A DNA stretch of 64,000 bases from Trypanosoma brucei (lineage: Eukaryota), in assembly GCA_000002445.1 (NCBI GenBank), contig AE017150.2:960001-1024000 (forward strand), read 5' to 3'. The notes under the pieces were generated by a model. It did not search any database, was not told the DNA's origin, and saw nothing but the letters and a program-made list of their open reading frames with translations. Positions 8,688 through 56,664 of the stretch are shown one piece after another (position 1 is the stretch's first letter; each line of letters starts with the position of its first letter). Made by a program: the position numbers and the translations under genes.

Positions 8688-11576
8688 CTAACGGGGCTGG
8701 TTGGCACGCGCTCGAAGCTCGGCTTCGGCGTCTTTCAACATTTTCGTCGCGTCGTTCAGAAGTCGGGTTTGTTCCTGCACGTAGCGCTTTAACCTATTTT
8801 TCTTTTCAGGATCTTCCTCGTGCTTGAGGCGTTCGATGCCTTCCTTATTCGCAGCCATTACGTACTTTACGAATCGTGTCACGGATCCGTTACGAAGCGG
8901 ATAGTTGTAGGTGGAATGCATTTTGCGGTGCAGCTCGAGGAGATTCTCTACAATCTCCTTGCCGTTGACCTCTTCATCGCTTTCGTCAGCCGTGGAGAGA
9001 CTCAACAGAAAGCATGTATGGGAAGGGCCACCGAGTACGAGATGAAAAAGCATGCAGTACTCATTCTTCACACGCGATATGGCAGAATCGTACGGGTGCG
9101 TGCCACTCCCAGAGGAGGCAAATACAAGTGAAGAGAGCAAAACATCACACGTACTCTCACCCGACTCTGTTCTTACTATACGGCTTTGCTTGACAAGAAG
9201 GAGGGCGACCAGGACACCACCCGTCATGGTGGAGAGAATTGGATCTGTACTGGCACGGCTTAACGCCTTGTTTAGGGACTCATCAAATGCCATGCTGGAC
9301 GTAACTTTGGTGTACCGCAACTGTGGAATACGCGGGCCATAAATCGGAGATGGCTGTACTTGCATCGTCTCAAACCTGCCACCGTTCAGGTCAAAAAGGT
9401 CTTTCACTTTGTCATCATGGAAAAACCCGAGAGCTGAAGTTACGCTCACGATGGAGTCAGCCGTTGTTTGACACCGCTGCAACACGCCGCGCACAATGCG
9501 AGTAAGATATGGCCACACAGGTGATCGAAACAGCATGTCGGAATTTGGCGCCTCCACGGAAAGCACAGAAGCGTTGTAGCCGTCACACACGGCATCCTTG
9601 ACACCGTTCAGAGTGGTAGAGTAAAAGTTCGTGCTACTGGGGTTGCGGATGACCACTTCATGGGCTTCATGCTTTGACCCACGGTAGCTAATGTTGTTTC
9701 CCTCGACCAAAAGCGGGGTTGAGGTGGACGGCACCTTCTCCACCAGTACAACTGTTTTTATACGGTTCGTTTTAAGGTCTTTCGGATGCCGCTGTTCCTC
9801 GTTTGTCCGCGTCCTTCGTTGACTTTCCTTGATGCTGGCGGTCTCTGTGACAGGTGTTGCACCGTCCGCCGCACGCGTATTCCCATCACAGAGGAGCTCC
9901 CCCTGAGAGCCTGGAGACTGGGTACGAGCAATATCCGGTCCACACCCGGTGCACCCATCCGTCGCCAGCTTCCCCCTTATGTCGGACTCCCCTGCTTGCA
10001 TGTGCGACCCTCGGTTCGTGTTTGGCCGCAAGCTCGCAAATTTTTCACCACCACCGGCCGTTTCCTCATTCGACGTCGGATGCAGCACATCACATGCTTC
10101 AGAAACCTGATTTCGCCGCGGCCGGTTGGTGTCGTGCGGGACTCCGGTGGAGTTTCTCGTATTTAAGATATCACCCTCAAGACTATCTTGAACTTCCTCC
10201 GCCTCTGGAAACTCAGCAATGGAAATATTAACCGCGTTAACACCACGCGGCCGGTGCAAAGAGGAACTCCGTTTCAAGAAAGGTCGCCTGTGGCGCCCGT
10301 ACGTGTTTGAGGTTTCGCCTTTACTTGCCACACTTGTTTGTTCTTGTGTATCCTCGGTGCCTTCCCCAAATGCGGACCCCACGCGCGCCAGTGGGTGCAC
10401 AACCTCCCCAACAGTCCTTGATAGCGGAATATCTAACGCCACGTTGTTGCTTTCTGCGGTTATAATCGTGCGACTCGACCCATCACTCACTGTCTCAACG
10501 ATTGCTCGGGTCGCTTCACACACAGGGGATGCATGCCCCTCCATGATGTGAAAATCTTCCGCGTCAGCAAGATCATAACTTGCCGGACTCTTAGTGCGAG
10601 CCTGCCGAGCATCAACTGCGAACGGGCTGTTCTTCCTGACGGGAGCCCCCTCTCTAGGATGGAGGGAGTGGGACTTGCCAGCGAACTTTTCTGCAATTCG
10701 CGATCCCAACGCTTGTGGAGGTTTCGCTTCACCCAGACCATTAGCCGACATCGTTGCTTCCCCGGCCACTGAAAATTTCCGGCCGACTTCGGATCGCGCG
10801 GGCTCCTTGGAAACACCACCGTCGATACCGTACAACGATTTTGAAACTTGTACGTAGTTGCTGGAGTTTGACCAGCTCAGTTGAGAAGGGCGGCGGAAGA
10901 ATCCCACCTGTGATGGCACCCGCCCGCGGTCTCGTCGGCTGCTGAACAGTTTTTGCACCGGCATTGAATCTTGGTAACCGCGGTACATGGAACCCCCGTC
11001 AACGGCCCCAAACCCGGAAGCACCGAAACTGCGGTAGCCACTACCCATCATGCCGTAAGTGGCGAAGTTTCCGTACTGCGAGGCACGGCACATCCCGGAA
11101 AAGCTGCTCTCCCGCTGGCCATATCCTCCGGCGCGGCTCATAAGAAAGCTGTTGTTGGGTAACCGTACCCCACTTCCGCACGATCTGCAACTCATGCTCC
11201 TCTGCGAGCCGTACTTATGACCATGGGGCCAAGTGCCTCCTTCGTGTGGAGGTCCGTGGGAGATATCATAATCCCCCGGAACAAAGCCTGTTTGGCAACC
11301 ATCCCTAAAACTTTGTCTTCGGAAACTCATTTTCTCTTTATTGTGCTCTTTTCTTTTCCTTGTTCGCTTCGCGGGGCCTCCAACTGGACTTCCCTTAGCG
11401 TTACCTTTTTTCTCCGTCGAAGCGTATGTGAAGTGGCGGTTGCACCTCTTGCTATACCCTATGAAAAAGGAAAAGATGCCGAAGAATACCAGACGTGCGA
11501 GAACTAGCAAGAGAGAAGCAGTTCCTACCAGCTCCAGACCGACAACGATCCGTGGTCGCACTACGTCAGTTTCCAT
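8688..11576 (-). CDS. Pseudo-kinesin family protein, paralog 1 (about 962 aa from the ATG at complement 11574-11576). It has a disordered Ser/Gly/Arg-rich N-terminal two-thirds and one degenerate kinesin-motor-like domain at the C-terminus.
   Basis: C-terminal block VLLSSLVFASSGSG ... MLFHLVLGGPSHTCFLLSLSTADESDEE ... LRNGSVTRFV aligns to the kinesin switch II and C-terminal motor consensus (LVDLAGSE ... LQDSLGGNsKT...SP ... RAKxIkN). No GxxxxGKT P-loop. Same family signature as the palindrome genes. The start could alternatively be a downstream Met (MSFRRQ). Confidence 0.7.
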   Translation of the reverse strand: METDVVRPRIVVGLELVGTASLLLVLARLVFFGIFSFFIGYSKRCNRHFTYASTEKKGNAKGSPVGGPAKRTRKRKEHNKEKMSFRRQSFRDGCQTGFVPGDYDISHGPPHEGGTWPHGHKYGSQRSMSCRSCGSGVRLPNNSFLMSRAGGYGQRESSFSGMCRASQYGNFATYGMMGSGYRSFGASGFGAVDGGSMYRGYQDSMPVQKLFSSRRDRGRVPSQVGFFRRPSQLSWSNSSNYVQVSKSLYGIDGGVSKEPARSEVGRKFSVAGEATMSANGLGEAKPPQALGSRIAEKFAGKSHSLHPREGAPVRKNSPFAVDARQARTKSPASYDLADAEDFHIMEGHASPVCEATRAIVETVSDGSSRTIITAESNNVALDIPLSRTVGEVVHPLARVGSAFGEGTEDTQEQTSVASKGETSNTYGRHRRPFLKRSSSLHRPRGVNAVNISIAEFPEAEEVQDSLEGDILNTRNSTGVPHDTNRPRRNQVSEACDVLHPTSNEETAGGGEKFASLRPNTNRGSHMQAGESDIRGKLATDGCTGCGPDIARTQSPGSQGELLCDGNTRAADGATPVTETASIKESQRRTRTNEEQRHPKDLKTNRIKTVVLVEKVPSTSTPLLVEGNNISYRGSKHEAHEVVIRNPSSTNFYSTTLNGVKDAVCDGYNASVLSVEAPNSDMLFRSPVWPYLTRIVRGVLQRCQTTADSIVSVTSALGFFHDDKVKDLFDLNGGRFETMQVQPSPIYGPRIPQLRYTKVTSSMAFDESLNKALSRASTDPILSTMTGGVLVALLLVKQSRIVRTESGESTCDVLLSSLVFASSGSGTHPYDSAISRVKNEYCMLFHLVLGGPSHTCFLLSLSTADESDEEVNGKEIVENLLELHRKMHSTYNYPLRNGSVTRFVKYVMAANKEGIERLKHEEDPEKKNRLKRYVQEQTRLLNDATKMLKDAEAELRARANQPR

Positions 11577-11862
11577 AAAATAACTTCGGAGCTGCACTCA
11601 GCAAAGACATGCGAAATGTTGCACTGACTCACCAACAGTTATACACCAAAGGTGATGCAACAAATGCGTGTCCGTCTGCGCGGGTACACCGCCACTGCAC
11701 CAGGTCCACTTCCACCCGCGAAGGCAGTACTTTGGTTTGTGTTGCCCCAACGGCATGCATGAATCCTTCATCCCAAATACCCCTACCACGGCACACCACC
11801 TTCTCTAGAGAAAGAGGTATCATCGGTCTGGGGTGCGTGCGGCTCGTCATACCACCACACAC

Positions 11863-12309: not shown

Positions 12310-14363
12310 ACCGGTATGAACGGTGCCGAGTTTTTCCTGCTCTTCAATGTTATGTGCTGGTTCACGACGTCTGCAACGCCAGTGGCAAGGAAAGTCCACT
12401 AGCCTGATTGCCGCTGTCGTTCTTGCTGGCCTGCCCCAGCGCAAGGGGGAATGCAACGAAATCAGCCGCCTCTACTGTCTTTAACATCCCATTCGCACGC
12501 ACTTTCACGCACCCGAGGTTCCATAACCTTTAAATTGCGTCGCCAGAAACCCTAGGACTGAATATGGGAGAAAAACCGAGCGTGGTACATCTGTGCGTGG
12601 CGTCTGGTTGAAGAAAGCCCATCGCTTCTGTACCTTTTTGAAGCTCGTCTCTGCTATGGTAATATCAAAGGTGGAGATCCCTTGTTCCGCAGCTCTAATG
12701 GAAGGTAAGAAAAGCCTTATACACACATCTTTGCCGCAGCTGCGTCATCTTCCTCCAACAGCCCAACAAGTGATGTGGAGTTGTGACCCGCCGGCCGTTG
12801 GAGCAGATGGACCTCATCCAAGACACATTGATCAAGCACCTCGCTTTATTGCAGGTTTTCATCAAGCCTGTGATATCTTCCAAATACCACTAGCACAGTT
12901 ACGAATGTTTTTCTGGCCAACGTCGGGCCCTCAACCGTTTCGGCTCTGATGATCGCTAACATGTGTGTCCCATCTCCAAATGCGCTGTCCACGCCCCTCA
13001 CCTCCACCTTAATATTTGGCGCATGCGCCTTTACCTCCTAAGAGCCGCGCAGTAAACAATCGACAACTGAGCCAGTCATCGCCTCTTGGACCCCAAGAAA
13101 TTGAAAGGGATTGTGCTCCAGAGGACGTGCCAAAGGACGGGAGGAGCTCACGACTGGGGCTGCACGTATTGTTTGTTTGGTGCAGACAGTCCAACATCGG
13201 GAGAAAAAAAACAGCACCGACATTCCTTGACCAGGCCCCTTGTTTTTCCCGGCCTCCCGCTTCAAACCGACATGCATGAACGGACTTGTCGCGCAAACTA
13301 TGTATCTAACAGTTCCATCTACAAGCGCCCTACTGCTGAAACAGTCCAAAACTAGCTCTCAAGCGTCGAGCATTGAAGTGACGCTGCAGTCACTCGCACC
13401 AAGGAACAACACAAAAAAGCAATCGTACTACGCGCGAAGCTGAAGTTCGGGCAGTATATTCGTCAATTTGAACCACAGATGGGACGGCTATCTTCGAGAT
13501 AAAAGGGCTACAAACCAAGTGTGGAATACCTTCGCAAAGAAAACTATAGTCCAACCCGTGGGTGGCGGCACAAAAGAGTCAATAAAAATAGCCTTACAGA
13601 TAGCGGGTTCATTCGACAAGCCCCCAAAGAATAGCACGCTACAATCTATCCACCACGTCGGACTAAGAACCTTCGTTGGGAACGAATTTATGAGCGTTGT
13701 GTCATTTTTCCAAATGGTACCGTTCAAAAAAAAAACTGCATTCCAAGTTGATTTTTTTTACAAAGTTGCTTATGCGCATGTAACCAACGGAACCCACACC
13801 TTGCCTTCGTGAGCCTGCCAGCTTTGACAGGACCTTGTCTACCGTTAAGATGAGGAAAGGGAAGAGAGTCGCGAGGTCACATTACAGGAGCTCCAGTATA
13901 CGCTAGCATCGGCTCAATCCCAGCGAGTCTGACATGGTCGAATAAAACACTGCATTTTTTCCCAAACACGCGAATGACGGTACCCCACGCGTGGGTTATG
14001 ATTGGGACAAACAACAAATTGAAAGATGTACCGGCACAATTGAGCCTCATCAGGCAGAGAGGAGAAACAAAAATAAAAAAAATAGATTAATTAATGGAAT
14101 AACGATGAAGGGCTTTAGCGCCCACAATGGTGCCAGCCATCTGACTGCAGCAGCTACTATGAGTCCTTGTGCATAAAGGAATGACTGTGAAGAAAGTTTG
14201 TACAAAATAAAATATCCTCTTCCATCCCCAAGCACTGGACGATTGGACCCTCCATTATAGGCAAATACAAAACAAAACAAAGTCCTACGGGGAAGGGCAG
14301 TTAACATACTCAAGCATGAACTAAAAATAGAACAGAATATAGCAAACCCAGCTTTGCAAGGTA

Positions 14364-14383
14364 ATATATATATATATATATAT
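14364..14383. repeat. (AT)10 microsatellite, with a mirrored copy at 60329-60348
   Basis: Direct reading. Confidence 0.8.
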
Positions 14384-14912
14384 GAGGAAGACGACATTTC
14401 GTTCATTCGTTTCGGCACCACACGGGTCTACACACAGATCCCCCGTGGGTGCTGTTGTGAGGACCGCAGCGAGGGCCTGAGCGCCGCGAACGGTAGTTTG
14501 GTATTCGGTATACACCCATAAACCCCTTTGAAAACATAAATAATGCCTACCGACCCTGGAATTTGGACCTTCGTTTTCATTCTTTCTTGTTTGCGTGCGC
14601 TACCTCCTTATACGGCAAGCGCGCAAAAGTTATCAACACCCAAGAAAATGGGACTCGCGTGCACAGCGCAGTTGGTCACGACAGCACCGAAATAGTTCCT
14701 ACTGTGGACACTGGTTTGCGTCACCAGAAAGTTCAAAGATTGTGGTGAATCTAACTCTCGCGACTCCTACGATTTCGCCTCCGCGCGTGCACACTAGTTC
14801 GCTTTGCTTAATGCAGCAACGAACGAACACATACGCACATCCACCTACTAACACTTGTTTGGGCCTCAACCCTGTTCTCATTTGCCGCCTATGAATGCGG
14901 GTGGAGTGAAAC

Positions 14913-17207
14913 TTAAACAATGAGGTATCCCTTGGGCGCTGTGGTAATCGGATTAGCCAGCATCTCCTCCGCATCCCTTACTATCGACTCCATACGGCTT
15001 ACCAGTCTCGCCGTGGGCTCCTTCCCGGTGCTGTCCATATCCTTCATCTTCTCCTGCTGTCTGTTTATCTCCTTTTTCGCTGATTCCACACACCGAAGCA
15101 CACTACCGATCCGCGGTGGAGTGTTTTTCACTTCCCGCATCCTGCGTTCGACGTCGAGACTGTCGCTAGCGCCCGTGTCACATTGAGAGAGAATCAGGGT
15201 GGAAACTGTAACACTGCCGCCACCGATCGCGTATCGGAACAGCCGGTGTGGCTCGGACGTGTCCTTCTCCTTCAACGCGGCAAACCGCGAGACCTCTTCC
15301 TTAGCGAGCCCAATGCATAACGAAGAGAGGTATACATCCCCACCGTTGGCAGTTTTCTTCAGTTGTTTCAGGACGAAAAAACCGACGATGAGGTGCTTTG
15401 GATTATCAACGAGTTGCATAGCACTGTTAAACACCTCCATACACTCCTTAGAGGAGGTTGCCTTCTTCGTTTTCATCCCAAGCAAACACGGCCCGTACAC
15501 GGGATTGGATGCAAGCTGCACCCTTTCGTAGCCTTTCTTCTCAGTGTCGAGGAGATCAAGAATGCGGTCAGAGGATTCCATCATACCCAGCGTTATAGTT
15601 ACGTCGAAATACTTGCACTTCTCCTTGGCGCCTTCCACACTCTCAAGGCACCTTTGGAGAAAATCACCCGCAAAAGTCACCGATGTATCTCCACAGTTCC
15701 TCCCAGCCCCCACAAGCAGTGCAGAGGTACGGCCAGCTATCCAGTTCAGTCGGAGGTCGTTGAGTAACACAGAGTTCACATATGCCGACGCCTCGCTACG
15801 CTCAAGGCACTCATCGTTAACATGCTCCTCTTCTCCCCCATCGCTCCGTCTGAAGACCACCGTCCGAGGGTCCTTCACAGTCACAACTACCTTATCTGAG
15901 GGTCCCTCATCCTTATCGAGAATGACGAGCGAGTGAATGTTGTAGTTTTCGAGTACAAGGGTCTGTGCACTCGAGTCATCACCGGCAGGGGAACACTCAC
16001 TCTGGGAAGCAAGGGATCTCCCAGGGGAAGCCAGCACAGGTTTCAGCTCATCCGCAGACCGGCCCTCACCACCACATTTGGCCGCCCCGACGGCTACAAC
16101 ATTCCCACCACGCAGTCCACTTCTCTGCAGCGGCACGTGGTCCTTGATGGTTGCGATGACGGGGCACAAACTGGTCCTCAATGGTGATGGCACACGACCC
16201 ACTCCGTTGCCATATATGCTCCCCATCTGTGAGATACCATTACGGTTCCCATAAGAAGAATCATGCACCGCTGAGCCACATACTCCCGTGTCTGAGGTTC
16301 CGGGAACAAAGCAACGAAAACTGAGGGCGTAACCACATCCACCATAGATACTTTCTCCCGCGGCGGATGCATGCAGGTCACCGAGCTCCCTTTGGCTATG
16401 GAATGACCCTTGCTGCTGGAATGAGTTCCTCCGTTGAGGCAAGTGCCCAGCAAGCCTCCCTGGCAACGACGGAAAAGCATGACCCTCCCCATACACTGAG
16501 TAAGGGAGGGGGTTGGACACGTCACCCAGAGCAGGTCCGTGCACACTTTCACACACTGCCCCCTCATGTGCGCTCGTTCCCGTGGTATGTTGACGCACGC
16601 GTCCGCCACGCGCAAACCCGTCGAGAGCGTATCCACACACACTCCGTGCCCCACAACCAGTGGCGACAATCCCTCTGCCCCCGGAGGGAAACTGCCCTTG
16701 AAACAAACTCGGCGGCGGCGGAACAGCTGGGGGGTAGCCGGCCATCCTCCCCTGCAGCGGTGGGAAGACACAGCCTCCATTTCTTGCTGATGGATAAAAT
16801 GCGTTAGATGCAGACCCCGTCGGCGCGACACCATACGTATACCCGCCCATTGTCCCCCAATAGGCACCCCCTCCTGCGGCAGGCTCCTGCATGTTTCCCA
16901 TGACTCCCTGTCCCTGGAACAACCCCTGTCTTTGAGGTGGTACGGTGTTGCGGCTGCCCAATTGACCATTCGGTGGTGAGATCGGGATCACCTGACCCAA
17001 GCCGCTCGTGGGGGCTGGTGGTCGAGTGGCGGATGGTTGGGAGGTCTGAGCAGTGTCAACGGTTACAAGGTTCTGTGTGTGTGTAGTTCCTTCGCTCGCG
17101 CCACCACGTTTTTCCTCATTCTCTCCCATCTTCGACTTCGGTGCTGAACTTCTGCACTGAAGGATCGATCCTGTTGGTGCGGCGGCGGCTGCCTTTACCG
17201 TGGACAT
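14913..17207 (-). CDS. Pseudo-kinesin family protein, paralog 2 (764 aa, left-arm copy). It has a Gly/Tyr/Pro-rich N-terminal half and one degenerate kinesin-motor-like domain.
   Basis: ATG start confirmed (complement of 17205-17207). A purine-rich plus-strand stretch at 17305-17355 is the polypyrimidine tract on the coding strand. Motor-like blocks: KYFDVTITLGMMESSDRILDLLD (like YFEIY..IRDLL), VYLSSLCIGLAKEE (like LVDLAGSE), RLFRYAIGGGSVTVSTLILSQ (like LQDSLGGNsKT) and REVKNTPPRIGS (like RAKxIKNkPxvNe). The P-loop is replaced by GRTSALLVGAGRNCGDT. Confidence 0.8.
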   Translation of the reverse strand: MSTVKAAAAAPTGSILQCRSSAPKSKMGENEEKRGGASEGTTHTQNLVTVDTAQTSQPSATRPPAPTSGLGQVIPISPPNGQLGSRNTVPPQRQGLFQGQGVMGNMQEPAAGGGAYWGTMGGYTYGVAPTGSASNAFYPSARNGGCVFPPLQGRMAGYPPAVPPPPSLFQGQFPSGGRGIVATGCGARSVCGYALDGFARGGRVRQHTTGTSAHEGAVCESVHGPALGDVSNPLPYSVYGEGHAFPSLPGRLAGHLPQRRNSFQQQGSFHSQRELGDLHASAAGESIYGGCGYALSFRCFVPGTSDTGVCGSAVHDSSYGNRNGISQMGSIYGNGVGRVPSPLRTSLCPVIATIKDHVPLQRSGLRGGNVVAVGAAKCGGEGRSADELKPVLASPGRSLASQSECSPAGDDSSAQTLVLENYNIHSLVILDKDEGPSDKVVVTVKDPRTVVFRRSDGGEEEHVNDECLERSEASAYVNSVLLNDLRLNWIAGRTSALLVGAGRNCGDTSVTFAGDFLQRCLESVEGAKEKCKYFDVTITLGMMESSDRILDLLDTEKKGYERVQLASNPVYGPCLLGMKTKKATSSKECMEVFNSAMQLVDNPKHLIVGFFVLKQLKKTANGGDVYLSSLCIGLAKEEVSRFAALKEKDTSEPHRLFRYAIGGGSVTVSTLILSQCDTGASDSLDVERRMREVKNTPPRIGSVLRCVESAKKEINRQQEKMKDMDSTGKEPTARLVSRMESIVRDAEEMLANPITTAPKGYLIV

Positions 17208-18049
17208 TACAAATGCTTATCAGCACGTGGCCAAACCTGGGTGGCTTACACAACTTCCTCGTGTCACACGGAAATTTGCCTTACAATCTCACTCCTTGTT
17301 TGTACGGAGTAAACCAAAATATGGAAGAGGGAAGAGAAAAAAATCGCAAAAATCCTTTCATATCTGTGTGATTCAGTGGCAAGCCCATCATTGATAACCA
17401 CAGTACGCACAACCATAGCGGAAGGTAACGACAAACCATTTCACTACGCACAGCGGGGTAACGAGTGGGCCGTGGAGTTTAACACAGTGCCGCTGTCCAC
17501 GGCCACACAACCGTGATGGCATCACAGCCCTACAAACGGTATGATGACCATGAACATTCTAATCACACAAGGCCAGTAGAAGGAGGGGATAGGGCAACTC
17601 GCTGCGTAGTGACGGGACCTGTTGTACAGCCCGTAGGTTGCAACAAGTCGAGCAGCGGACGCTGTTACGTTGAAATGCGCCCCAACCAGTGATACTGGGT
17701 TGAATTGTTGTTTCAGTGTATCACACAAAGCAAGCACTTCCGGTCCACCCCGATGGTGTATAATGAGACGCTTGTTTGACTTCCCTAACCATAACGATAC
17801 TATGAGAGAAGGTACCGGGAAAAGAGATCAACAGGAAGCGATAAAGTTGAGCAGCACATGAAAACAATGCCCGACGGTCAGTGAGCACGCAACTGGGAGA
17901 GTAAAGTTTACCACCACACGCTCGGTAGCGTTTTAACCCTAAAAATACGCTGAATAAAAAAGGGAAGTAAAACGGGACAACTCGAATCAAAGAAACCAAT
18001 ACATGGGAATACGCACGTACAATGGGGAAGAAAAGAGGGGGAGAATAAA

Positions 18050-18073
18050 TAATAATAATAATAATAATAATAA
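18050..18073. repeat. (TAA)8 microsatellite. The mirrored copy at 56627-56662 is (TTA)12, an arm length polymorphism.
   Basis: The ORF-track poly-N runs have 9 versus 13 residues. This accounts for the 12 bp offset in outer-arm coordinate sums (74712 versus 74700). Confidence 0.85.
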
Positions 18074-26185: not shown

Positions 26186-28010
26186 TTTACGGTTACAAAA
26201 CTTACTTGCTTGACTTCCCTTGCTTTCGCTCCTCTTTCTGAAACCAAAGACAGCTTTTGAGAAACGTAGAAATAGGAGAGGGGGAGGGAAACAGAGGCGT
26301 TTGAACAACTAACTAGGCCGGGCTGACCACGGAACGTCTTACACCAAGTTGGAAAGTGGGACAAACCCAAGAACGTATGTGACTCGCATGAAACGTGTAA
26401 CCTCCGAGGCATGGCGCCACGCCGTCGACGGTAAAAACAAGTATCGTAGAGGTCTGGGAACCGTGCTGACAACACAGATGAGGAAGATTGCCGAGCATGT
26501 GTGTGTGCGTGACTACAAAGTAAGTCGGAGCACATCCGACAGGATCCCTTCTTGGGTACAAGGGGTATTATTCCCGTCCAAAGATGCTATGTAACTGCTC
26601 CCCAAGCCCACACAGAATTCTCCGCGCCAGCTCAGATTTTACCGAGATGCAATACGGAGACTTGTGCAGCCGTGGATTCGGCAGTTGAATCTTCTCACTC
26701 TGAAATATAATTACCAGTTTCAGCGGCGTGCCCTCACAGGGGTTTTGCTCAGTGCATTGCAAAGACCTTCTCAGTGAAGCTGCCGATCCTATTCGCGACT
26801 TGCTACGTTATCGGTGTGCAAGAGTAAAAGGAATGAAAGAATGAAGACATGATGTTATCCCGACAAAACCTTCCGTGCTGCCCTTGGGAAGGGCGCCCTA
26901 GTCACCGCAACAACAAGTCGTATGAAGCGATCGCTATTTAGTTTCCGCGGTGCATTCATTATTATTAGTAGTAAGCAGAGGATACCTGGAAAAAAATACA
27001 ATGGGCACACATGCTATTCATCGATGTAAGTGACTCCGCGTCAACGGAGCGCGACCCCAAAACAGTAGCAGTGGTACAAAGGGGGAGAACACGTAAGTAA
27101 ATGGTATATAAAAAATAAAAAGAGGCTGTGTCGGTACTTCCTCGGGTCGCTACTATGACCTTCCGCCCAACACGTGTAAAAAACTCTAGGGGAGGGGGGA
27201 AGGGTGGGTTCCCATCGAATAACCGCAAAAACACAGCAAAATTGAAATAAACACACACACACACAAAAAAAAAAACGCGCGTGACGGTCAGCACACACGG
27301 CTCACTTTATTTCCAACCACTCACTACGTTCACGAAGGGAACACTCCTTCCTACCTTTTCCCAAATGCGGACGCATTGCAGATAACAAAGGCGATGAAAG
27401 AAAGAGATAAATTTACGGCAACACGAAAAAAAACTAAAAAATGTACTAAGCACTTAAGACGATGCGCAGGAAGGGAATACACTAAACACACACACACACA
27501 TTATACTTACCACTCTCTGCGGAAGAGAGATCGGCTTACAGAAACCCTCAGAAAGAGGTAAAGCGAAGTCCCGCCCTAGCTCCCCCGCGGCAGCGAGACA
27601 AAGGTATCGCTTTTCACCCTTACCGCCCTTCAACGGCACGTGGGAGAAGCAAATTTATCGAAGTAAACAAGCGGTATCTTGGTAGCAGCAGCGTGCACCA
27701 GCAGGGAGAAGGGAACACTTATGGGGTACATATATATATATATATATACGCGCGTGTGTATGACATTTATATAACGACGCACACACAAATTTTGGCGTAT
27801 CCGAGCCACCGAATGGGCAACGCAACCAGAGGTAGTGTTAAGGTGGGGAAACCCAACATACTAGAAGTGTGTACCCACTTCCACAGCTCAACCGGACCCA
27901 TAGGGGTGCGAGCGTTCGGCAGTAGTGCACAAGTACCTTCATGCTAGCACACAAAGTGACAAGTAGATGAGGCTTGGAGTAATAAACGTCAGAATGGAGG
28001 CACACCAGCC

Positions 28011-31000
28011 TCAGTGCACCGACTTGTAAGCGCGTACGCAGCCCATTTCCCGTGGTGGGTTCTTGAGGAGTGACTCAACTTCTAGCAGGAAACGCCTTGC
28101 ACGGACGATCCTCACGCGGAGTTGGGCCTTTTCTTCCTCACTTTCTTCTTCCTGAAGCTGGACCCCCAGCACCTGAATTGTTTTCGTAAGTTCATCCATG
28201 CGCCGTAGAGCACTCGTGCGATGAGACGGCAGGTTTCGCACCTGGGAAAGCTTAGTTTGCACGGAAAGCAAGGCTTCCGCATCATCATCTTCGTCACACA
28301 ATCCAAGCGCGACGATAGTGAAACATGGCCCCCCCAACGCGAGCTTGAAAAGGTCCGTGAGCTCACTAGAGCGGTTTGACAAAATGTCGCTGTAGTGGGA
28401 AACGTGATCGAATACGGTGGTCACCATGAGCGAGGAAACAAACACGTCGTGTACAGGTTCTTCCACATGGTGTGTTAACTTTAAGGAAACAACCATCAGG
28501 CCGGGATCCTCGGCTTGTAGGGTGGGTACGACGTGCTCGACAGCCCCAACTAAAAAACGGTCAAAAGCCTCAGTGTCGGCGACAACGCGATGCGACACTC
28601 CCCGTACGTGGCGGTCGAAGAGTGGTGATATTTCCACCCCGAAGCGGTGAACCGCCTCGGATTCTTCAGCTGCCAATAGATCCACCGTAACACCGTTCTT
28701 AACGAGCGCCATTGAGAGGAGCAAGTCGCCACCCACCGGCCCGCAACCCACCCCTGCTTTCGTACTCTGCAGGATAAGGTACACTATCTTGCGGAGGATA
28801 AGCGGTGTGGAAGCGGAGTTGTGGCTATCTGCGGCAAGAACAGCAGTGCAATGCCCCGACATAAACTTCCGAACGAGCTCATCAAGAAGACGTGAACACA
28901 GAGTAGCATTACTGTCGCTGTCGGGCCCACGCAACACCACCTCGTCGACGCCATAGCGGCGGGTAATCGCCCCTGCTCGGGTAAATACGGAGTTACCTTG
29001 CACACCAGCGGTACCATCACTAAGGAGTCGTTGCTCGAAGAATAAAAGTGAATGAACCCTCCCCTCGTCCCCGGTTCTGGCTTTGGTCTCTAGGAGCGAC
29101 ACGCACCCCTTAGGCGACCTTGTCTCTTTGTCACTAAGATATGCGCGGGGGTCATTCGACTCGAAATTCTCCAAAAGCAATTCTGCGTCTCGCACCATTT
29201 CCTCGAGCCGGTACAATATATTATCTGACGGCTCACATTTATTCGACCCTTGAAACTTTTCACGAAGACTAGGCACGAGATCATCCCGGATTCCGCTAAT
29301 AAACTTCACGATGCTTCCGCGGTGTATCGGCCGGTTCACCACCTCTCCAATACACTTCTGCACGCGCAGCATATTTTCGGTCTGAGTCGTTGCGACATCA
29401 ATACTAAGCAACGCTACAGTATAACACGGTCCACCCAATGCGTAGTGAAATAGCGCACGCGGTGCGCGCGAGACACGGTTCAGCACGGATGTGTAGAGGT
29501 CAACGTTTTCCCCTGCCAAACTGACTGCGAGAGATGAGACAAGGACATCCCCATCCGCTTTCAGCTTCTGCTTTAGTACAACTGAGACGAACACCAACCC
29601 ATCATCGACCCCTGCGTTCTTGGCGCGACGAAGGGCTGATGCCAGTAGCGAGTCGAACCCGCTGCAGCTGCTAACAGGAAACCGGCGGGCGTTGTGAACA
29701 CACGGGCCGAAGATCGGCGACATAGCTATGACCAACCTCTCCGGCTCGCTGCTATCATCCAGCAGATCAAGCATGCGCTCTCCGCTCAATTTCACAATCG
29801 ATAAGCTGAGCAATCCTCTACGGTTGGAATTCTGGAGGCCCGAAGCATCAACAACCTCTGAAAGCACATTCCGTACGAGACCCCTAAGCACAGTTGATGA
29901 CACGGTTGAGGAACCACTCTCTGCAGTAAGGATAGCAGCGTTGCAACCCAAAACAAAAACATCAAACAGCTCACCCAACACCTTCGAAGGCACGTCACCG
30001 CAACCATCGCCCCATTTCACCACCTCGTCAACCTCGTATCCCTCATGAGAGCCGCCAGTTCTTAGGAAAGGCCCACCGTCATCGTTCCCGGCACCAATCA
30101 CGTGTCCACAACCCTGGTCGACCACAACAAGCGTTCTCACCTTAGAAGGTGCAGACATGGCACTGTGCAGCACATCATCCTCGCTGCCTTCTGCGCTCCG
30201 TGCGCTGCTGTCACTACCGCCGTCAGAAATTTGCTTCTTCTTGATGTCGGTGTGCACGCTGTTTTGGCTCGCATGAGCCACTTGCTTGCAAGTGAGGGTT
30301 GGGGAGCCCCCAGAGCATGCAACCGAGGCATCGGGCAGTTGTGGCTGTTCCCTCTGTCTGCAGAGTGCTGGGCCCTGCGAGATTCCGCAGTGCTCCACGG
30401 GCTCCACAACACCGGGGGGTCCCGTAAGGATTGGGTCGAATGGGAAGCAAGATGTCATGGAACACGGTGGTCCCCGTGCTGCCTTCAAGGATGGGAGAGA
30501 AAGGCCAGGGTCGTATTTCACCTTTGTGCTTATACCTGGGCATGAAAAAGCATCGGGCGTGGTAGAAGTTCTAACTTTTTCTGCATCAGGAACACCGGGT
30601 GTGTCAATCTTACAGGAGACCTCAGCATCATGCGAGGCCCCCCGAGCGGGGGTTAGCGAGAACAGCCGCTGTGAGTATGCACATGTCGTGTGGTCGGAGG
30701 AAGCTGAGGAAGGAAAACAACGGTGGGCTCTACGCTGCGTAGATGGCGCCAATTCCATTCCACATGTGGTTGCCAAAGGGCCCAGGGAGGGCAAACCCTC
30801 CCCCCTTTGGGGGTCCGACATACTGCAAGTCGTTGCGTAACTAGCTTGATCCGGCTCCACTGGAATGCTGAGTCTTCTGCTGGATGGCCTCACCTGGCGC
30901 TCCAGTCGGGGATCTCGGGGAGTGGGCATGCCTGCTGCGGTAACACAGGGCAAGCACGAGGGTGTTTTCCCCTCCCCATAATGATTGCGTTGTGGCAGCG

Positions 31001-34000
31001 ATGACGGTGGCGCGCCACCCATGAGCGTAACTCTAGTGTCGCCTTTGCTACTTGGTTTCAGCCACTGTGCCTCCGAGAAAAATTTTGGACATGGTTCTTG
31101 TCTCTGCTTACTACTTTGCCCTTCCTCCACACACAGCGCAGACGCCGCGTTGTGGGAATCCCCGCCACAAGCAGACACAGATGAGGACTGTGGTCCAGGG
31201 AACGGTTGCTTGTCAAATTTCACACCACAATGAACCCTCTTCTCAAGTCGTACTGATTCCTCCACGTCAACTACCAGTGAAAGCCCTTTGGGGTTATACA
31301 TAATATGTTTCGCAAGCGCTATGCGCTCAAGCAAGAATTGTTTTCTTTCCAATACAATTTGATCGTCAGTGGAACACCCAGCAACCTCCGCCTCCGCATT
31401 ATCGATCAACCGACTCACGCTTCCTACGGTACACGGTTGGTTGACAACGGAAGTGAACTTATGTTGGGCGCTCAGAAGCTGCAGAAGGTCTCTGTCCCTT
31501 TCACAGAGTGAGGAAACCACAACAGTGAAATAAGGACCACCCAACGCTTCATGGAATAGCTTTCGTGCACTTTGGTCACCTTCCCTCAGCAGCACATCAA
31601 GGTCGTTAGGGGTAGCACCACCCGTCACAAGCATCGACGACAAAATTACATCATTCACATCAATTTGTTTCAACATGACGGACAAAACTACACGACTTCC
31701 GACACAATTGTGCTTCAAATCGGCAACTTCGAGACCACGCGATAAAAGTGTGATGAAGTGATGTGCGCTCTTCAGTTTCATATGGGTGACGTTTTCAAAG
31801 GCAACCCAAGGAGCCATGACGGAGGAACTTAGAGTTCGCACCCCCCCTTCGGACTCAGAAAGCAAATCCCGTGCTGACTCCTGTCGTATTAGGACAACGG
31901 ACATAAACAACTCGCACTCATCATTGATGTCACGAAACACATGATTCATCACCTCAAAAACCGCACACCAGCCAGACAGTGGTACTGACTCACTTCCAGC
32001 AACAAACATGGCAACGTTCATGCCGCGGAGAAACTTTCCTTGAAGTTCCGCGAGTGTGACAGAGCACATATCATTGTCATCGGTGCATTCCAGGTATTCG
32101 TCCACGCTAAAGAAGTGTGGCAAGCCCTGTGGAGGACAGACTTCTAGCGTACTCTCTCCGCGGAGGTTTACTGCCGTCTGCACATCATTCTGTCCCGTTC
32201 CCGTTTTGTGGTTGAGTACAATCAAACGCACTCGGTTTGAAGGAACACTCTGTCGTTCCCTTGAAACCCTGATAATTGGTGACGACCCCCCCTCAACGAG
32301 ACACATCCCATCTTCAGCCACTTTAACCGTATGAGACCCAGACACTCCACCAGTACTAAGCTCGCTGCACGGATGCCATCTCTTTCGGGAAACAACTGCA
32401 GCCGGCGGGCGCACAAAGCTTTGAGATGCGGTAATGGACTCTGCACCCGCCACTAAACTGATCGATGACCCATTCATTCTCCCGGGGCCCTGAACTGCCT
32501 TTTCCCTGGAACGCTTCTGAATGGAAAGTTGCTCGCTTCCACCCATACATACCCCCTGTCCTACACCTTGATTCTTATCTAGACTACAACTGGCTGACCT
32601 GCATGTCGAACCTGGACGACTGTCGCCGCAACGAGCGATGCATGGGTTAATCGAACGAAGCTCCGTTCCGCATCGCAGATGCACACCCACAGAGCAGGAG
32701 ATATGAGACTGCAGATATTGCTCACACTCCCTTTCCATGCCCACAGACACCCCCTCGGCAGACAAAATAGCCCCCTCACCCTCTTCCGCAGTACAAATCG
32801 ACTGACGGGACGGCAAAGGTGAGCTTATAATCAAATTCGAGTCGCCTTTGAGGCCACTAAAGTACGGATACTCCATCCCCCCAATTAAACTATCCACCAA
32901 AGAGTTACATGATGGAGTTCCAACCCTGCCACGTGCGCGGTCAGTAAGAATGGCAGATATGGGAAGAGCTTTCGACGGCAAACTGAGTCCGGTACCTTCT
33001 TTGACGTCCCCTAACGGCCCTTCGGCGCCCACAAAGTCAGAGGCTGCAGAAGGACATGAAAACGTTTTTGGTAGTACGTCGCCGACCATGGTGAGCTCAA
33101 CGTTACCGGAAGCTTTTCCTTCCTCGGTACGCAGAGGCTGCGCGTTCACGACTCCGGTGGGAGCACCTATGATGTCCTCGCTGCACCTCTGATATACCGC
33201 TCCACTCGTCCCATTTGTCAGGGCACCAGTTCCTCGATCATCATGTCGAGGAAACAGCATCAGTTCATTGTTGGATCCACTGTCCCCACGGCGCATAACT
33301 CCCATGCATATCTCACTAGCTTTTTGCGTGTGCCCCTCACTGCAACTTCCACTCGAGAGAACACCGGGAATCCCGTTGTCTGTGCAAAGTAGCCCCAATA
33401 CCATATCCACATCATAAAGGGAACTCTCACTCACACCTAAGGTATCACAGCCCCTTGTAGTGCCCTGCGGAAGATTGCATTTTCCGTCAAAGGCCCGGAA
33501 AGACCACCTCAGCCACCTCTCCGATGTTCCGTTAGGAGATGTTTTGCCCTGCAGACTGTTGGCCTCTCGCAGCACACCTACGTCGTTTCGGAGGGGACTC
33601 TCACTTGCTACCGTCAAACTCGACTGCAGCCCACCAAACTGGGCGAGCCTATTCGATTGGCCATCTAGAACCCGTGGTGGAGAGGTCGTCACGGTCGATT
33701 GCAGGGGCCAGGGACCCAGCCGCATTCCGTGAATGAAGGCATCAAGCCCATAATCGTGGCTATTCAGGTCGGCATGTTCACTCTGGAAAGCGTACGAGCA
33801 GACATAGTCGAGATCATAATACGGATAGTTTTCCCCCTCCAATGTCGCCGCTAGGTCGCTGGGCCTCGTATCAACTGTCAGGGCAACGTTGTCAATGGTT
33901 GAGCGCCCCTGAGCAACGGACACGGGCCCGTCTCCATCTTTGGCATCAAGATATATGGAAGACCTCCTCCTCCCTAAGTCTCCGTCATCAAGGCCATCCG

Positions 34001-34193
34001 ATCCAGTAGCCCACTCTGCAGTATTACAAACAATACTTCCACGGTCATTGTTTCCCGTTACATGAACACCAGTAGGGGAATTCCAGCCGTCGCTGAAGGT
34101 GTCTACTACCTCTTGGTGTTGCATTACCGCCTCGGACGCAAGAATATGGGACTCCACATTAGAAAAGCTTATCGAACCCTCAACATCGGACAT
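28011..34193 (-). CDS. Pseudo-kinesin family protein, paralog 4 (about 2060 aa from MSDVEG, left-arm copy). It has a Cys/Ser-rich N-terminal region of about 640 aa and three degenerate kinesin-motor-like domains separated by long Ser/Pro/Cys-rich linkers.
   Basis: The ORF-track start is GTG. The first ATG at complement 34191-34193 lies just downstream of the polypyrimidine tract ttcactttcccccctcccccatcttc plus AG. LGG blocks KLFHEALGGPYFTVVVSSL, ALFHYALGGPCYTVALLSI and DLFKLALGGPCFTIVALGL. Switch-II-like VLVSSLAVSLAGEN. Motor C-terminal blocks VVNQPCTVGS, VVNRPIHRGS and VRNLPSHRTS. No GKT P-loop anywhere. C-terminal coiled-coil QEEESEEEKAQLRVRIVRARRF. Confidence 0.85.
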   Translation of the reverse strand: MSDVEGSISFSNVESHILASEAVMQHQEVVDTFSDGWNSPTGVHVTGNNDRGSIVCNTAEWATGSDGLDDGDLGRRRSSIYLDAKDGDGPVSVAQGRSTIDNVALTVDTRPSDLAATLEGENYPYYDLDYVCSYAFQSEHADLNSHDYGLDAFIHGMRLGPWPLQSTVTTSPPRVLDGQSNRLAQFGGLQSSLTVASESPLRNDVGVLREANSLQGKTSPNGTSERWLRWSFRAFDGKCNLPQGTTRGCDTLGVSESSLYDVDMVLGLLCTDNGIPGVLSSGSCSEGHTQKASEICMGVMRRGDSGSNNELMLFPRHDDRGTGALTNGTSGAVYQRCSEDIIGAPTGVVNAQPLRTEEGKASGNVELTMVGDVLPKTFSCPSAASDFVGAEGPLGDVKEGTGLSLPSKALPISAILTDRARGRVGTPSCNSLVDSLIGGMEYPYFSGLKGDSNLIISSPLPSRQSICTAEEGEGAILSAEGVSVGMERECEQYLQSHISCSVGVHLRCGTELRSINPCIARCGDSRPGSTCRSASCSLDKNQGVGQGVCMGGSEQLSIQKRSREKAVQGPGRMNGSSISLVAGAESITASQSFVRPPAAVVSRKRWHPCSELSTGGVSGSHTVKVAEDGMCLVEGGSSPIIRVSRERQSVPSNRVRLIVLNHKTGTGQNDVQTAVNLRGESTLEVCPPQGLPHFFSVDEYLECTDDNDMCSVTLAELQGKFLRGMNVAMFVAGSESVPLSGWCAVFEVMNHVFRDINDECELFMSVVLIRQESARDLLSESEGGVRTLSSSVMAPWVAFENVTHMKLKSAHHFITLLSRGLEVADLKHNCVGSRVVLSVMLKQIDVNDVILSSMLVTGGATPNDLDVLLREGDQSARKLFHEALGGPYFTVVVSSLCERDRDLLQLLSAQHKFTSVVNQPCTVGSVSRLIDNAEAEVAGCSTDDQIVLERKQFLLERIALAKHIMYNPKGLSLVVDVEESVRLEKRVHCGVKFDKQPFPGPQSSSVSACGGDSHNAASALCVEEGQSSKQRQEPCPKFFSEAQWLKPSSKGDTRVTLMGGAPPSSLPQRNHYGEGKTPSCLPCVTAAGMPTPRDPRLERQVRPSSRRLSIPVEPDQASYATTCSMSDPQRGEGLPSLGPLATTCGMELAPSTQRRAHRCFPSSASSDHTTCAYSQRLFSLTPARGASHDAEVSCKIDTPGVPDAEKVRTSTTPDAFSCPGISTKVKYDPGLSLPSLKAARGPPCSMTSCFPFDPILTGPPGVVEPVEHCGISQGPALCRQREQPQLPDASVACSGGSPTLTCKQVAHASQNSVHTDIKKKQISDGGSDSSARSAEGSEDDVLHSAMSAPSKVRTLVVVDQGCGHVIGAGNDDGGPFLRTGGSHEGYEVDEVVKWGDGCGDVPSKVLGELFDVFVLGCNAAILTAESGSSTVSSTVLRGLVRNVLSEVVDASGLQNSNRRGLLSLSIVKLSGERMLDLLDDSSEPERLVIAMSPIFGPCVHNARRFPVSSCSGFDSLLASALRRAKNAGVDDGLVFVSVVLKQKLKADGDVLVSSLAVSLAGENVDLYTSVLNRVSRAPRALFHYALGGPCYTVALLSIDVATTQTENMLRVQKCIGEVVNRPIHRGSIVKFISGIRDDLVPSLREKFQGSNKCEPSDNILYRLEEMVRDAELLLENFESNDPRAYLSDKETRSPKGCVSLLETKARTGDEGRVHSLLFFEQRLLSDGTAGVQGNSVFTRAGAITRRYGVDEVVLRGPDSDSNATLCSRLLDELVRKFMSGHCTAVLAADSHNSASTPLILRKIVYLILQSTKAGVGCGPVGGDLLLSMALVKNGVTVDLLAAEESEAVHRFGVEISPLFDRHVRGVSHRVVADTEAFDRFLVGAVEHVVPTLQAEDPGLMVVSLKLTHHVEEPVHDVFVSSLMVTTVFDHVSHYSDILSNRSSELTDLFKLALGGPCFTIVALGLCDEDDDAEALLSVQTKLSQVRNLPSHRTSALRRMDELTKTIQVLGVQLQEEESEEEKAQLRVRIVRARRFLLEVESLLKNPPREMGCVRAYKSVH

Positions 34194-34693: not shown

Positions 34694-34694
<1 letters not shown>

Positions 34695-34729
<35 letters not shown>
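34695..34729. repeat. (TA)17 microsatellite. The mirrored copy at 39978-40004 is (AT)13, an arm length polymorphism. The adjacent poly-C is 10 in the left arm versus 9 in the right.
   Basis: Counted directly. This accounts for the 9 bp offset between the arms (coordinate sums 74708 versus 74699). Confidence 0.85.

Positions 34730-34734
<5 letters not shown>

Positions 34735-39972: not shown

Positions 39973-40004
<32 letters not shown>

Positions 40005-56622: not shown

Positions 56623-56664
<42 letters not shown>

What the first reader, a model, noticed from the sequence alone, without database searches (positions are those of the whole stretch)
8688..34193. Tandem cluster of four paralogous pseudo-kinesins: P-loop-less kinesin-motor-like domains, up to three per polypeptide, fused to low-complexity N-terminal regions
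Paralogs 1 to 4 (about 962, 764, about 1522 and about 2060 aa) lie consecutively on the minus strand; the last three are duplicated in the right arm. They share blocks that align to the conserved core of the kinesin motor. A YF[DE]V..(I/L).DLL block matches the beta5/loop8 YFEIYnE..rDLL. A V(Y/F/L)(L/V)SS(L/F)xxxLAG(S/E) block matches switch II LVDLAGSE. An LF(H/Q/R)(Y/E)ALGGP(C/Y)xT block matches LQDSLGGNsKT. A (V/L)(K/R/V)N.P...(G/S) block matches the motor C-terminus RAKxIKNkPxvNe. The nucleotide-binding P-loop GQTGSGKT is replaced in every domain by a family-specific G(Y/H/M/C)N(V/T/A)A(L/I/M)(L/F)..(A/S)(E/D) block. Switch I SSRSH is also lost, so ATPase activity is very unlikely. Paralogs 3 and 4 each contain three such domains in tandem, each followed by a short coiled-coil. 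I do not recognise this multi-motor architecture from characterised kinesins. The N-terminal regions are Gly/Tyr/Met/Ser-rich (GSMYG repeats), Gly/Tyr/Pro-rich or Cys/Ser-rich. A tandemly organised, recently duplicated family of dead multi-head kinesin-like proteins could be a cytoskeletal scaffold or microtubule-binding lattice, for example in flagellar or subpellicular structures.
Basis: partly seen in the sequence, partly recalled or inferred. Interest (0 to 1): 0.8.

Follow-up and report, generated by a model that had tools for sequence, protein, structure and literature searches.

The report
Dead-kinesin adhesion-family genes in Trypanosoma brucei

Summary
Four minus-strand genes encode proteins of 962 (probably 880), 764, 1522 and 2060 aa. 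They carry 1, 1, 3 and 3 homologous domains of about 320 aa, so 8 domains, not 10. The last three genes are repeated in a 99.9%-identical inverted arm.

The window is T. brucei chromosome 2. Paralog 3 is POMP22 (Tb927.2.5530 and Tb927.2.5610). Owino et al. (PNAS, 20 July 2026) named this family ARND, for Adhesion Related NTPase-like Domain. They reported kinesin-like domains without Walker A, several per protein. They showed KIAP4 is essential for Leishmania adhesion. The three T. congolense proteins they localised to the adhered flagellum are the orthologs of paralogs 1, 2 and 3 here.

Verdict: real and correctly read as dead multi-domain kinesin-like proteins, but already known. A non-enzymatic scaffold role is supported. 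A microtubule lattice is not.

The parts
8688..11576 (-). Paralog 1 (XP_951710.1 / Q586E4). It is 962 aa as annotated, but the real start is probably M at 11330, giving 880 aa. It is the ortholog of T. congolense TcIL3000_2_1450.
   Evidence: Cluster look-up gives 99% identity to T. brucei entries. BLASTP gives 48% identity over 885 aa to P0030, starting at ORF residue 90. The published tagging primer translates to the P0030 N-terminus. Coordinates checked.
8697..9725 (-). p1 kinesin-like (ARND) domain with its C-terminal helices
   Evidence: hmmsearch with the family HMM gives E 1.1e-91.
14913..17207 (-). Paralog 2 (XP_951711.1 / Q586E3), 764 aa. The Gly/Ser/Ala/Pro-rich N-terminus is followed by one ARND domain at 14916-15896. 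It is the ortholog of TcIL3000_0_08690.
21617..26185 (-). Paralog 3, POMP22 (Tb927.2.5530 or Tb927.2.5610; which arm carries which ID was not determined; XP_951713.1 and XP_951716.1), 1522 aa. It is the ortholog of TcIL3000_0_08720.
   Evidence: [quoted passage not shown] Gene IDs come.
25131..25693 (-). Tandem DNA repeats encoding the GSMYG / Gly-Met-Tyr-rich low-complexity region of p3
   Evidence: Tandem Repeats Finder arrays. MYG repeats are conserved in the T. congolense, T. vivax and T. cruzi orthologs and in T. theileri.
23816..24808 (-). p3 ARND domain 1
   Evidence: hmmsearch E 2.9e-85
22649..23599 (-). p3 ARND domain 2
   Evidence: hmmsearch E 1.2e-90. Included in the two-domain model.
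21623..22576 (-). p3 ARND domain 3. It keeps an 'LAGS' remnant of switch II.
28011..34193 (-). Paralog 4, 2060 aa. It has a Ser/Gly-rich N-terminus, ARND domain 1, a 390-aa Ser/Pro-rich linker, then ARND domains 2 and 3.
   Evidence: The T. theileri ortholog TM35_000232180 is 50% identical over the C-terminal two domains.
31257..32183 (-). p4 ARND domain 1
   Evidence: hmmsearch E 1.9e-70
29130..30092 (-). p4 ARND domain 2. This is the domain that was modelled, and it gives the best Pfam Kinesin match.
28023..29021 (-). p4 ARND domain 3
   Evidence: hmmsearch E 2.2e-87
40506..46688 (+). Second copy of paralog 4 (right arm), 3 aa differences from the left copy
48515..53083 (+). Second copy of paralog 3 (the other POMP22 gene), identical protein
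57505..59799 (+). Second copy of paralog 2 (XP_951718.1 / Q586D6), 1 aa difference
13757..60955 (.). Inverted duplication (palindrome) that carries p2, p3 and p4 twice. The arms are 13757-37286 and 37422-60955, around a 135-nt centre.
   Evidence: the repeat finder. 14 substitutions and 3 register shifts. Two of the shifts lie at the (AAT)n and (TA)n microsatellites.

Best explanation
The region is the Trypanosoma brucei chromosome 2 cluster of the ARND (Adhesion Related NTPase-like Domain) family, whose founding member is Leishmania KIAP4. There are four distinct paralogs and seven gene copies in the window.

Each protein has a long disordered Gly/Ser-rich N-terminal region. In p3 this region is Gly-Met-Tyr repeats. 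It is followed by one or three self-contained modules. Each module has a kinesin motor core, a neck-linker-like strand, a two-helix hairpin and a conserved 'DA..LL..P....P..Y' tail.

Shown here: the modules have lost the P-loop, switch I and the switch II aspartate, so they are not NTPases. They have also lost most of the L11/α4/L12/α5 tubulin-binding face.

Inferred from the family's published biology: the proteins act as non-enzymatic structural building blocks. The dead kinesin modules are rigid protein-protein interaction units strung on flexible linkers. They help assemble the cytoskeletal attachment plaque that fixes the flagellum of insect-stage parasites to vector tissue. For T. brucei this means epimastigotes in the tsetse salivary gland. 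p3/POMP22 is additionally found at the mitochondrial outer membrane in non-adhered procyclic cells.
For: Identity:
- p1, p2 and p3 match T. brucei TREU927, gambiense and equiperdum proteins at 96-100% identity. p3 carries the name POMP22.
- Owino et al. 2026 name Tb927.2.5610 (POMP22B) as a KIAP4 paralog and count eight T. brucei paralogs.

Fold:
- The domain profile hits only kinesins in the PDB, at E 1.2e-11 and 1.1e-14.
- AF2 gives pLDDT 92.5 and pTM 0.91.
- Foldseek finds 346 hits with E<=1e-3, and the 50 best listed are all kinesin structures, best 7.9e-17.

Dead site:
- The motif table for all 8 domains is.
- No kinesin-type P-loop occurs in any family member.
- The same conclusion was reached for the L. 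mexicana members.

Family breadth:
- 148 representative proteins reach E<=1e-10; every member whose source was looked up is a trypanosomatid, and a few true kinesins sit at the tail of the list.
- Members carry 1-4 domains each.
- The cluster is syntenic in T. theileri.

Function (published):
- KIAP4 deletion abolishes Leishmania adhesion and stomodeal-valve colonisation.
- Seven ARND proteins localise to the adhered flagellum.
- Three T. congolense members localise to the laterally adhered flagellum, including on detergent-extracted cytoskeletons. By their tagging primers, these three are the orthologs of window p1, p2 and p3.
- Four of the eight T. brucei paralogs rise after RBP6 induction.
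- The POMP22-1 and POMP22B mRNAs are listed among transcripts with normal up-regulation in RBP6-induced cells.

Modularity: the two-domain model has confident domains (pLDDT 85), a low pTM of 0.54, and a linker with pLDDT below 50.
Against: - No experiment has tested adhesion for any T. brucei member. RBP6-induced T. brucei cells do not adhere in culture.
- TrypTag signals in procyclic forms are weak, cytoplasmic or punctate. For POMP22B the signal is clearly mitochondrial.
- None of the C. fasciculata paralogs is up-regulated on adhesion, and some L. mexicana members give only weak plaque signal. Not every member need act in adhesion.
- The protein-protein interaction role of the dead domain is inference. 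No binding partner or interface was shown here or in the paper.
Confidence: 0.7

Rival explanations
1. The dead kinesin heads still bind microtubules in a nucleotide-independent way, as the Vik1/Cik1 motor-homology domain does. The multi-head proteins would then form a static lattice on subpellicular or axonemal microtubules.
For: - The kinesin fold is well supported.
- The T. congolense orthologs resist detergent extraction.
- A kinesin-fold chain occurs in the T. brucei doublet-microtubule structure 9e5c.
- The L8-equivalent 'SP.FGP' motif is among the most conserved in the family.
Against: - Aligning a true kinesin to the family HMM shows the family lacks about 43 residues across L11, the N-terminal half of α4, L12 and the start of α5.
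- The model has only 7- and 4-residue helices where α4 and α5 should be.
- Published localisations are at the plaque, or cytoplasmic or mitochondrial, and not along microtubule arrays.
Confidence: 0.1
2. At least paralog 3 (POMP22) works mainly at the mitochondrial outer membrane, for example in organelle positioning or morphology, and the adhesion link is secondary or absent in T. brucei.
For: [quoted passage not shown]
- TrypTag shows a clear mitochondrial localisation for Tb927.2.5610.
- The L. mexicana relative LmxM.32.2890 gives weak mitochondrial signal.
- The Leptomonas homolog is annotated 'putative mitochondrial'.
Against: - The T. congolense ortholog of p3 (TcIL3000_0_08720) localises to the adhered flagellum.
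- Its mRNA is among those rising normally on RBP6 induction.
- No transmembrane or presequence feature was established here.
- The two roles are not mutually exclusive.
Confidence: 0.2
3. The domains are still active, highly divergent NTPases that use a non-canonical nucleotide pocket.
For: Only that the loop between β3 and α2 still exists (5 residues in the model) and is Ser/Gly-rich in some domains, for example 'ESGSST' in p4 domain 2.
Against: - There is no lysine or GK[ST] at the site in any of the 8 domains.
- The site is not conserved across the 50 diverse domains aligned in A2.
- Switch I and the switch II aspartate are also gone.
- The same result holds for the Leishmania members.
Confidence: 0.02

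Closest known systems
ARND (Adhesion Related NTPase-like Domain) family / KIAP4 of Leishmania mexicana (Owino et al., PNAS 2026, PMC13416946)
   Same: It is the same family. Both have one to several kinesin-like domains without Walker A, plus coiled-coil or helical segments and disordered regions. Both are encoded in a chromosomal array and are conserved across kinetoplastids. POMP22B is named as a paralog, and the T. congolense proteins tagged in the paper are orthologs of p1-p3.
   Different: The T. brucei members have not been tested for adhesion. One of them (POMP22B) is mitochondrial in procyclic cells. Three points are not stated in the parts of the paper's text and supplements that I read or searched:
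- the deletion of the L11/α4/L12/α5 face;
- the hairpin's likeness to the kinesin-3 neck;
- the 47-kb inverted duplication.
Kinesin-3 motor domain with neck coil and CC1 (KIF13B, KIF1A, KIF14, KLP-6)
   Same: - These are the best sequence-profile hits.
- They are also the best Foldseek hits. The top two are auto-inhibited KIF13B (6a20) and full-length KLP-6 (7wrg), and 7wrg has the highest TM-score among the top 50 (0.62-0.63, against 0.49-0.59 for all other listed hits).
- HMMER extends the alignment through the KIF13B neck region, residues 308-408.
   Different: - There is no P-loop, switch I or switch II.
- About 43 residues of the microtubule-binding face are absent.
- There is no FHA or cargo-binding tail.
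- Up to four modules occur in one chain.
Vik1/Cik1 motor-homology domain (yeast Kar3 partners)
   Different: There is no detectable sequence relationship. Vik1 works as a heterodimer with an active motor and binds microtubules (my own knowledge). ARND proteins have no known active partner and lack the canonical tubulin-binding face.
Inactive calpain-like proteins of kinetoplastids (including KIAP3)
   Same: An enzyme fold has been repurposed as a cytoskeletal scaffold and expanded in kinetoplastids. The ARND authors draw this analogy, and KIAP3 is the bait that found the family.
   Different: The fold is unrelated (cysteine protease, not P-loop NTPase).

Membership tests
ARND family (KIAP4-like) | At least one domain whose best structural match is a kinesin motor | tested here: met
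   [not shown]
ARND family (KIAP4-like) | Walker A (P-loop) motif not conserved | tested here: met
   all 8 domains; no kinesin-type P-loop in any family member among 164 proteins.
ARND family (KIAP4-like) | Sequence homology to named members | tested here: met
   p3 is POMP22, and Tb927.2.5610 is named as a KIAP4 paralog. p1, p2 and p3 are 48-62% identical to the three T. congolense members tagged in the paper. Walker-site peptides of the L. mexicana members resemble those of homologs found here, for example 'GRFDSPVW' against p1 'FRSPVW'.
ARND family (KIAP4-like) | Coiled-coil or helical segments and intrinsically disordered regions | tested here: met
   A two-helix hairpin follows each modelled domain. 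The N-terminal regions are Gly/Ser-rich with tandem repeats. Disorder is inferred from composition and was not predicted with a dedicated tool.
ARND family (KIAP4-like) | Localisation to, and requirement for, the flagellar adhesion plaque | not testable with these tools
   Shown in the literature for Leishmania KIAP4 and for the T. congolense orthologs of p1-p3. Not shown for T. brucei.
Kinesin superfamily (functional motor) | Kinesin motor fold | tested here: met
Kinesin superfamily (functional motor) | P-loop GQT..GK[ST] | tested here: not met
Kinesin superfamily (functional motor) | Switch I (SSRSH) and switch II (DLAGSE) | tested here: not met
   No SSRSH in any domain. The switch II aspartate is absent in all. 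An 'LAG[SE]' remnant survives only in p3 domain 3 and p4 domain 2.
Kinesin superfamily (functional motor) | Intact L11/α4/L12/α5 microtubule-binding face | tested here: not met
   About 43 residues are missing relative to a true kinesin. The helices are 7 and 4 residues in the model. Binding itself was not tested.
Kinesin superfamily (functional motor) | Pfam PF00225 above gathering score | tested here: inconclusive
   p4 gives 31.7 bits against a 29.3 cut-off. p3 gives 13.5 bits. p1 and p2 give no hit.

The most novel reading that the evidence does not exclude
The ARND module may be a fossilised, permanently 'locked' kinesin-3-type unit. It would consist of the motor core, a docked neck linker and a neck-coil/CC1-like hairpin, as in auto-inhibited KIF13B and KLP-6. 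Its nucleotide pocket and tubulin-binding face were both deleted.

Multi-module proteins would then be flexible bead chains. Their conserved Gly-Met-Tyr or Gly/Ser low-complexity heads would self-associate to form the electron-dense attachment plaque. POMP22 might additionally tether the mitochondrion.

None of this is in the parts of the 2026 paper that I read or searched. That paper suggests a septin-like filament analogy instead.
Probability: 0.2. Interest if true: 0.5.

Novelty: already known. Interest (0 to 1): 0.25.

Why it matters
Attachment of trypanosomatids to their insect vectors is needed for transmission. For T. brucei, that means epimastigotes attaching in the tsetse salivary gland. 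The ARND family is the first large set of plaque components to be identified. This window shows that seven of the eight reported T. brucei copies appear to sit in one palindromic cluster, which gives a compact target for deletion.

The structural details found here narrow what the domain can do. It has lost the catalytic site, most of the tubulin-binding face is deleted, and it keeps a kinesin-3-like neck hairpin. These points argue against a microtubule-based mechanism. As a discovery, the finding adds little to what was published in July 2026.

Tried and rejected
- Searching the 5.8-billion-protein word index with the 8-domain alignment returned nothing, not even the self hit. The whole p4 and a single p2 domain gave only 2 and 4 hits. 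The index is too insensitive for this fast-evolving family. The exhaustive profile search solved this.
- Pfam alone would have missed p1 and p2.
- A literature search for 'pseudokinesin' with Trypanosoma found nothing relevant. The family was reached only through the POMP22 name.
- I considered that the palindrome might be a long-read mirror-assembly artefact and rejected it. The arms differ by 14 substitutions and by microsatellite lengths. Both copies are annotated in TREU927 and in an independent T. b. equiperdum assembly.
- I considered an N-terminal membrane anchor for p1, which UniProt calls 'Transmembrane protein'. This is probably an upstream-start artefact, because the orthologs begin at MSFR....
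- tRNA and Rfam scans of the window were empty.
- A search for kinesin-fold proteins in papers on the T. brucei doublet-microtubule structure gave nothing usable.
- The two-domain model gave no confident inter-domain packing (pTM 0.54). A rigid-rod arrangement is therefore not supported, but with only 20 sequences it is not excluded either.
Full report
**1. What is in the sequence**

The window has four long minus-strand ORFs between 8.7 and 34.2 kb.

BLASTP of the four proteins against each other shows they share a module of about 320 aa. It occurs once in p1 and p2 and three times in p3 and p4, with pairwise E-values of 1e-9 to 1e-39 at 21-31% identity. An exhaustive HMM scan finds exactly eight modules, not ten.

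Everything from 13757 to 60955 is a palindrome around a 135-nt centre. So p2, p3 and p4 occur again on the plus strand. The arms differ by 14 substitutions and three register shifts. Two of the shifts sit at the (AAT)n and (TA)n microsatellites. The duplicated proteins differ by 1, 0 and 3 residues. The flanking genes are an ABC transporter at 2670-6590 and an adenylate kinase at 61671-62501.

**2. Are the modules kinesin-like?**

Yes.
- Pfam Kinesin passes its curated threshold for p4 only (31.7 against 29.3 bits). It is sub-threshold for p3 and absent for p1 and p2.
- A profile of the eight modules hits 90 PDB sequences at E<=1; the 60 best listed are all kinesin motors, best 1.2e-11.
- A profile of 50 diverse family modules improves this to 1.1e-14. 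Kinesin-3 members (KIF13B, KIF1A, KIF14) lead both lists.
- An AlphaFold2 model of p4 module 2, built on that 50-sequence alignment, is confident (pLDDT 92.5, pTM 0.91).
- Foldseek against the PDB returns 346 hits at E<=1e-3, and the 50 best listed are all kinesin structures, best 7.9e-17.

**3. Are they dead?**

Yes.
- The HMMER alignments show that the family block 'G[YH]N.A.L' corresponds to the kinesin β3 strand 'GYN..IFAYG'.
- The P-loop that should follow is shortened by 8-12 residues. It contains no Lys and no G....GK[ST] in any of the eight modules.
- None of the 164 related proteins collected has a kinesin-type (GQT.SGKT-like) P-loop apart from a few true kinesins at the tail of the hit list. 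The broad pattern G..[GS].GK[ST] also gave single, unrelated matches in two family members, P0015 and P0040.
- The switch I site never reads SSRSH.
- The switch II aspartate is absent everywhere. An 'LAG[SE]' remnant survives only in p3 module 3 and p4 module 2.

**4. A further loss, not mentioned in the parts of the 2026 paper I read**

I aligned a genuine kinesin (P0147, which has GSTGSGKS, SSRSH and DLAGSE) to the family HMM. The family lacks about 43 residues spread over L11, the N-terminal half of α4, L12 and the start of α5. In the model only 7-residue and 4-residue helices remain between β7 and β8. This is the canonical tubulin-binding face (established knowledge of kinesin structure). 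Canonical microtubule binding is therefore unlikely, although it was not tested.

**5. What follows each core**

After α6 comes a conserved 'VKN.P.R.GS' neck-linker-like segment, then two helices (residues 262-282 and 288-309 of the module), then a conserved 'DA..LL..P....P..Y' tail.

Several results point to a kinesin-3-type neck:
- The two top Foldseek hits are auto-inhibited KIF13B (6a20) and full-length KLP-6 (7wrg). Both include the neck coil and CC1.
- 7wrg has the highest TM-score normalised to the query among the top 50 hits: 0.62-0.63, against 0.49-0.59 for all other listed hits.
- HMMER carries the sequence alignment through KIF13B residues 308-408.

I infer that the 'short coiled-coil' is an intramolecular hairpin related to the kinesin-3 neck. 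This is a lead, not a demonstration.

A model of two adjacent modules (p3 905-1563) has confident domains (pLDDT 85) but pTM 0.54 and a linker with pLDDT below 50. Modules on flexible linkers fit this better than a rigid rod.

**6. Organism and identity**

Exact or near-exact cluster members identify the window as Trypanosoma brucei chromosome 2.
- p1 is XP_951710.1.
- p2 is XP_951711.1 and XP_951718.1.

The gene IDs Tb927.2.5530 (POMP22-1) and Tb927.2.5610 (POMP22B) come from the literature. The flanking adenylate kinase is Tb927.2.5660.

Both copies of p2 and p3 are annotated separately in TREU927 and in T. b. equiperdum. The inverted duplication is therefore genuine.

p1's annotated N-terminal hydrophobic stretch is probably upstream of the real start. 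The T. congolense ortholog and the T. equiperdum annotation begin at 'MSFR...', which is window position 11330.

**7. The family**

The exhaustive profile search of 1.84 billion representatives gives 660 hits at E<=1e-3, 148 at E<=1e-10 and 101 at E<=1e-30.

The members I looked up are all 'hypothetical' proteins of trypanosomatids. They come from T. grayi, T. theileri, T. melophagium, T. conorhini, T. cruzi, T. vivax, T. congolense, Leptomonas, Lotmaria and Phytomonas.

Proteins carry 1-4 modules. The cluster is syntenic in T. theileri, which has an extra divergent paralog.

The Gly-Met-Tyr 'MYG' repeats of p3 are conserved in its T. congolense, T. vivax and T. cruzi orthologs.

**8. Comparison with the literature**

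Searching for POMP22 led to Owino et al., PNAS, 20 July 2026 (PMC13416946).

What they did:
- Using TurboID on KIAP3 in adhered Leishmania mexicana haptomonads, they found an arrayed gene family on chromosome 32.
- They named it ARND (Adhesion Related NTPase-like Domain), with KIAP4 as the canonical member.

What they report:
- Every predicted P-loop NTPase domain has a kinesin as its best Foldseek match and lacks Walker A. There are one to four such domains per protein (Dataset S3).
- All members have coiled-coil and disordered regions.
- The family is conserved across kinetoplastids except Bodo saltans and T. rangeli.
- T. brucei has eight paralogs, four of them up-regulated after RBP6 over-expression.
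- POMP22B is the exception, with mitochondrial localisation in TrypTag.
- Three T. congolense paralogs localise to the laterally adhered flagellum, including on extracted cytoskeletons.
- KIAP4 deletion abolishes adhesion in vitro and stomodeal-valve colonisation in sand flies.

I translated their T. congolense tagging primers. TcIL3000_2_1450, TcIL3000_0_08690 and TcIL3000_0_08720 turn out to be the orthologs of window p1, p2 and p3 respectively.

A second paper lists the POMP22-1 and POMP22B mRNAs among those that still show normal up-regulation during RBP6-driven development.

The window's seven gene copies plus one elsewhere would account for the eight reported T. brucei paralogs. This is an inference, because the paper's tree was not readable here.

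**9. Interpretation**

Its core interpretation, dead multi-head kinesin-like scaffold proteins, matches what is now published.

The specific idea of a microtubule-binding lattice is not supported, for two reasons. The tubulin-binding face is deleted. The experimentally determined location of the orthologs is the membrane-apposed attachment plaque.

The most likely mechanism is non-enzymatic scaffolding of the flagellar attachment plaque in insect-attached stages. This rests partly on the family's published biology and partly on inference for T. brucei. The dead kinesin modules would act as interaction units, and the low-complexity heads may promote self-association.

p3/POMP22 may have an additional or alternative mitochondrial role.

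**10. Verdict**

The finding is real, well observed and already known. What this analysis adds:
- exact domain boundaries;
- the correction about the GYN block;
- the deletion in the microtubule-binding face;
- the likeness of the hairpin to the kinesin-3 neck;
- the probable mis-annotated start of p1;
- the orthology of the window genes to the experimentally localised T. congolense proteins;
- the description of the 47-kb inverted duplication.

Noticed in passing
window 13757-60955 (centre 37287-37421): A 47-kb near-perfect palindrome carries p2, p3 and p4 twice, with genes pointing away from the centre as at a divergent strand-switch region. The arms differ by 14 substitutions and three register shifts. 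Two shifts lie at microsatellites: (AAT)n at 18048-18073 and (TA)n at 34695-34729. No long ORF, tRNA or Rfam hit lies in the central 6 kb.
   Followed up: partly
window 11331-11576 (-): The annotated start of p1 adds about 82 residues, including a hydrophobic stretch that earns the UniProt name 'Transmembrane protein'. The T. congolense ortholog and the T. equiperdum annotation start at 'MSFR...' (window 11330), so the membrane segment is probably not translated.
   Followed up: partly
[not shown]
   Followed up: no
P0139, P0131, P0148 (tail of the representative search): Proteins of unknown origin carry two or three intact GQT[GS]SGKT P-loops in one polypeptide, for example P0139 (2770 aa, P-loops at 283 and 1803). 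Multi-motor chains with apparently live kinesin heads therefore exist elsewhere, although assembly or gene-model errors were not excluded.
   Followed up: no
L001 17937-23747 (T. theileri): T. theileri has an extra, very divergent 1936-aa paralog between the orthologs of p4 and p3. It has only weak similarity to the kinesin-like modules (BLASTP about 1e-6). No counterpart exists in the T. brucei window.
   Followed up: partly
window 25131-25693 and orthologs P0186, P0188, P0192: The Gly-Met-Tyr 'GSMYG' repeat region of p3 is conserved as a feature across Trypanosoma: 13-31 'MYG' units, with Gly 18-30% and Met 9-14%. This suggests selection on the low-complexity region itself.
   Followed up: partly
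window 18941-19693 (-) and mirror 55007-55759 (+): A 250-codon ORF lies between p2 and p3 in both arms. It has no Pfam match. I did not determine whether it is a real gene.
   Followed up: no
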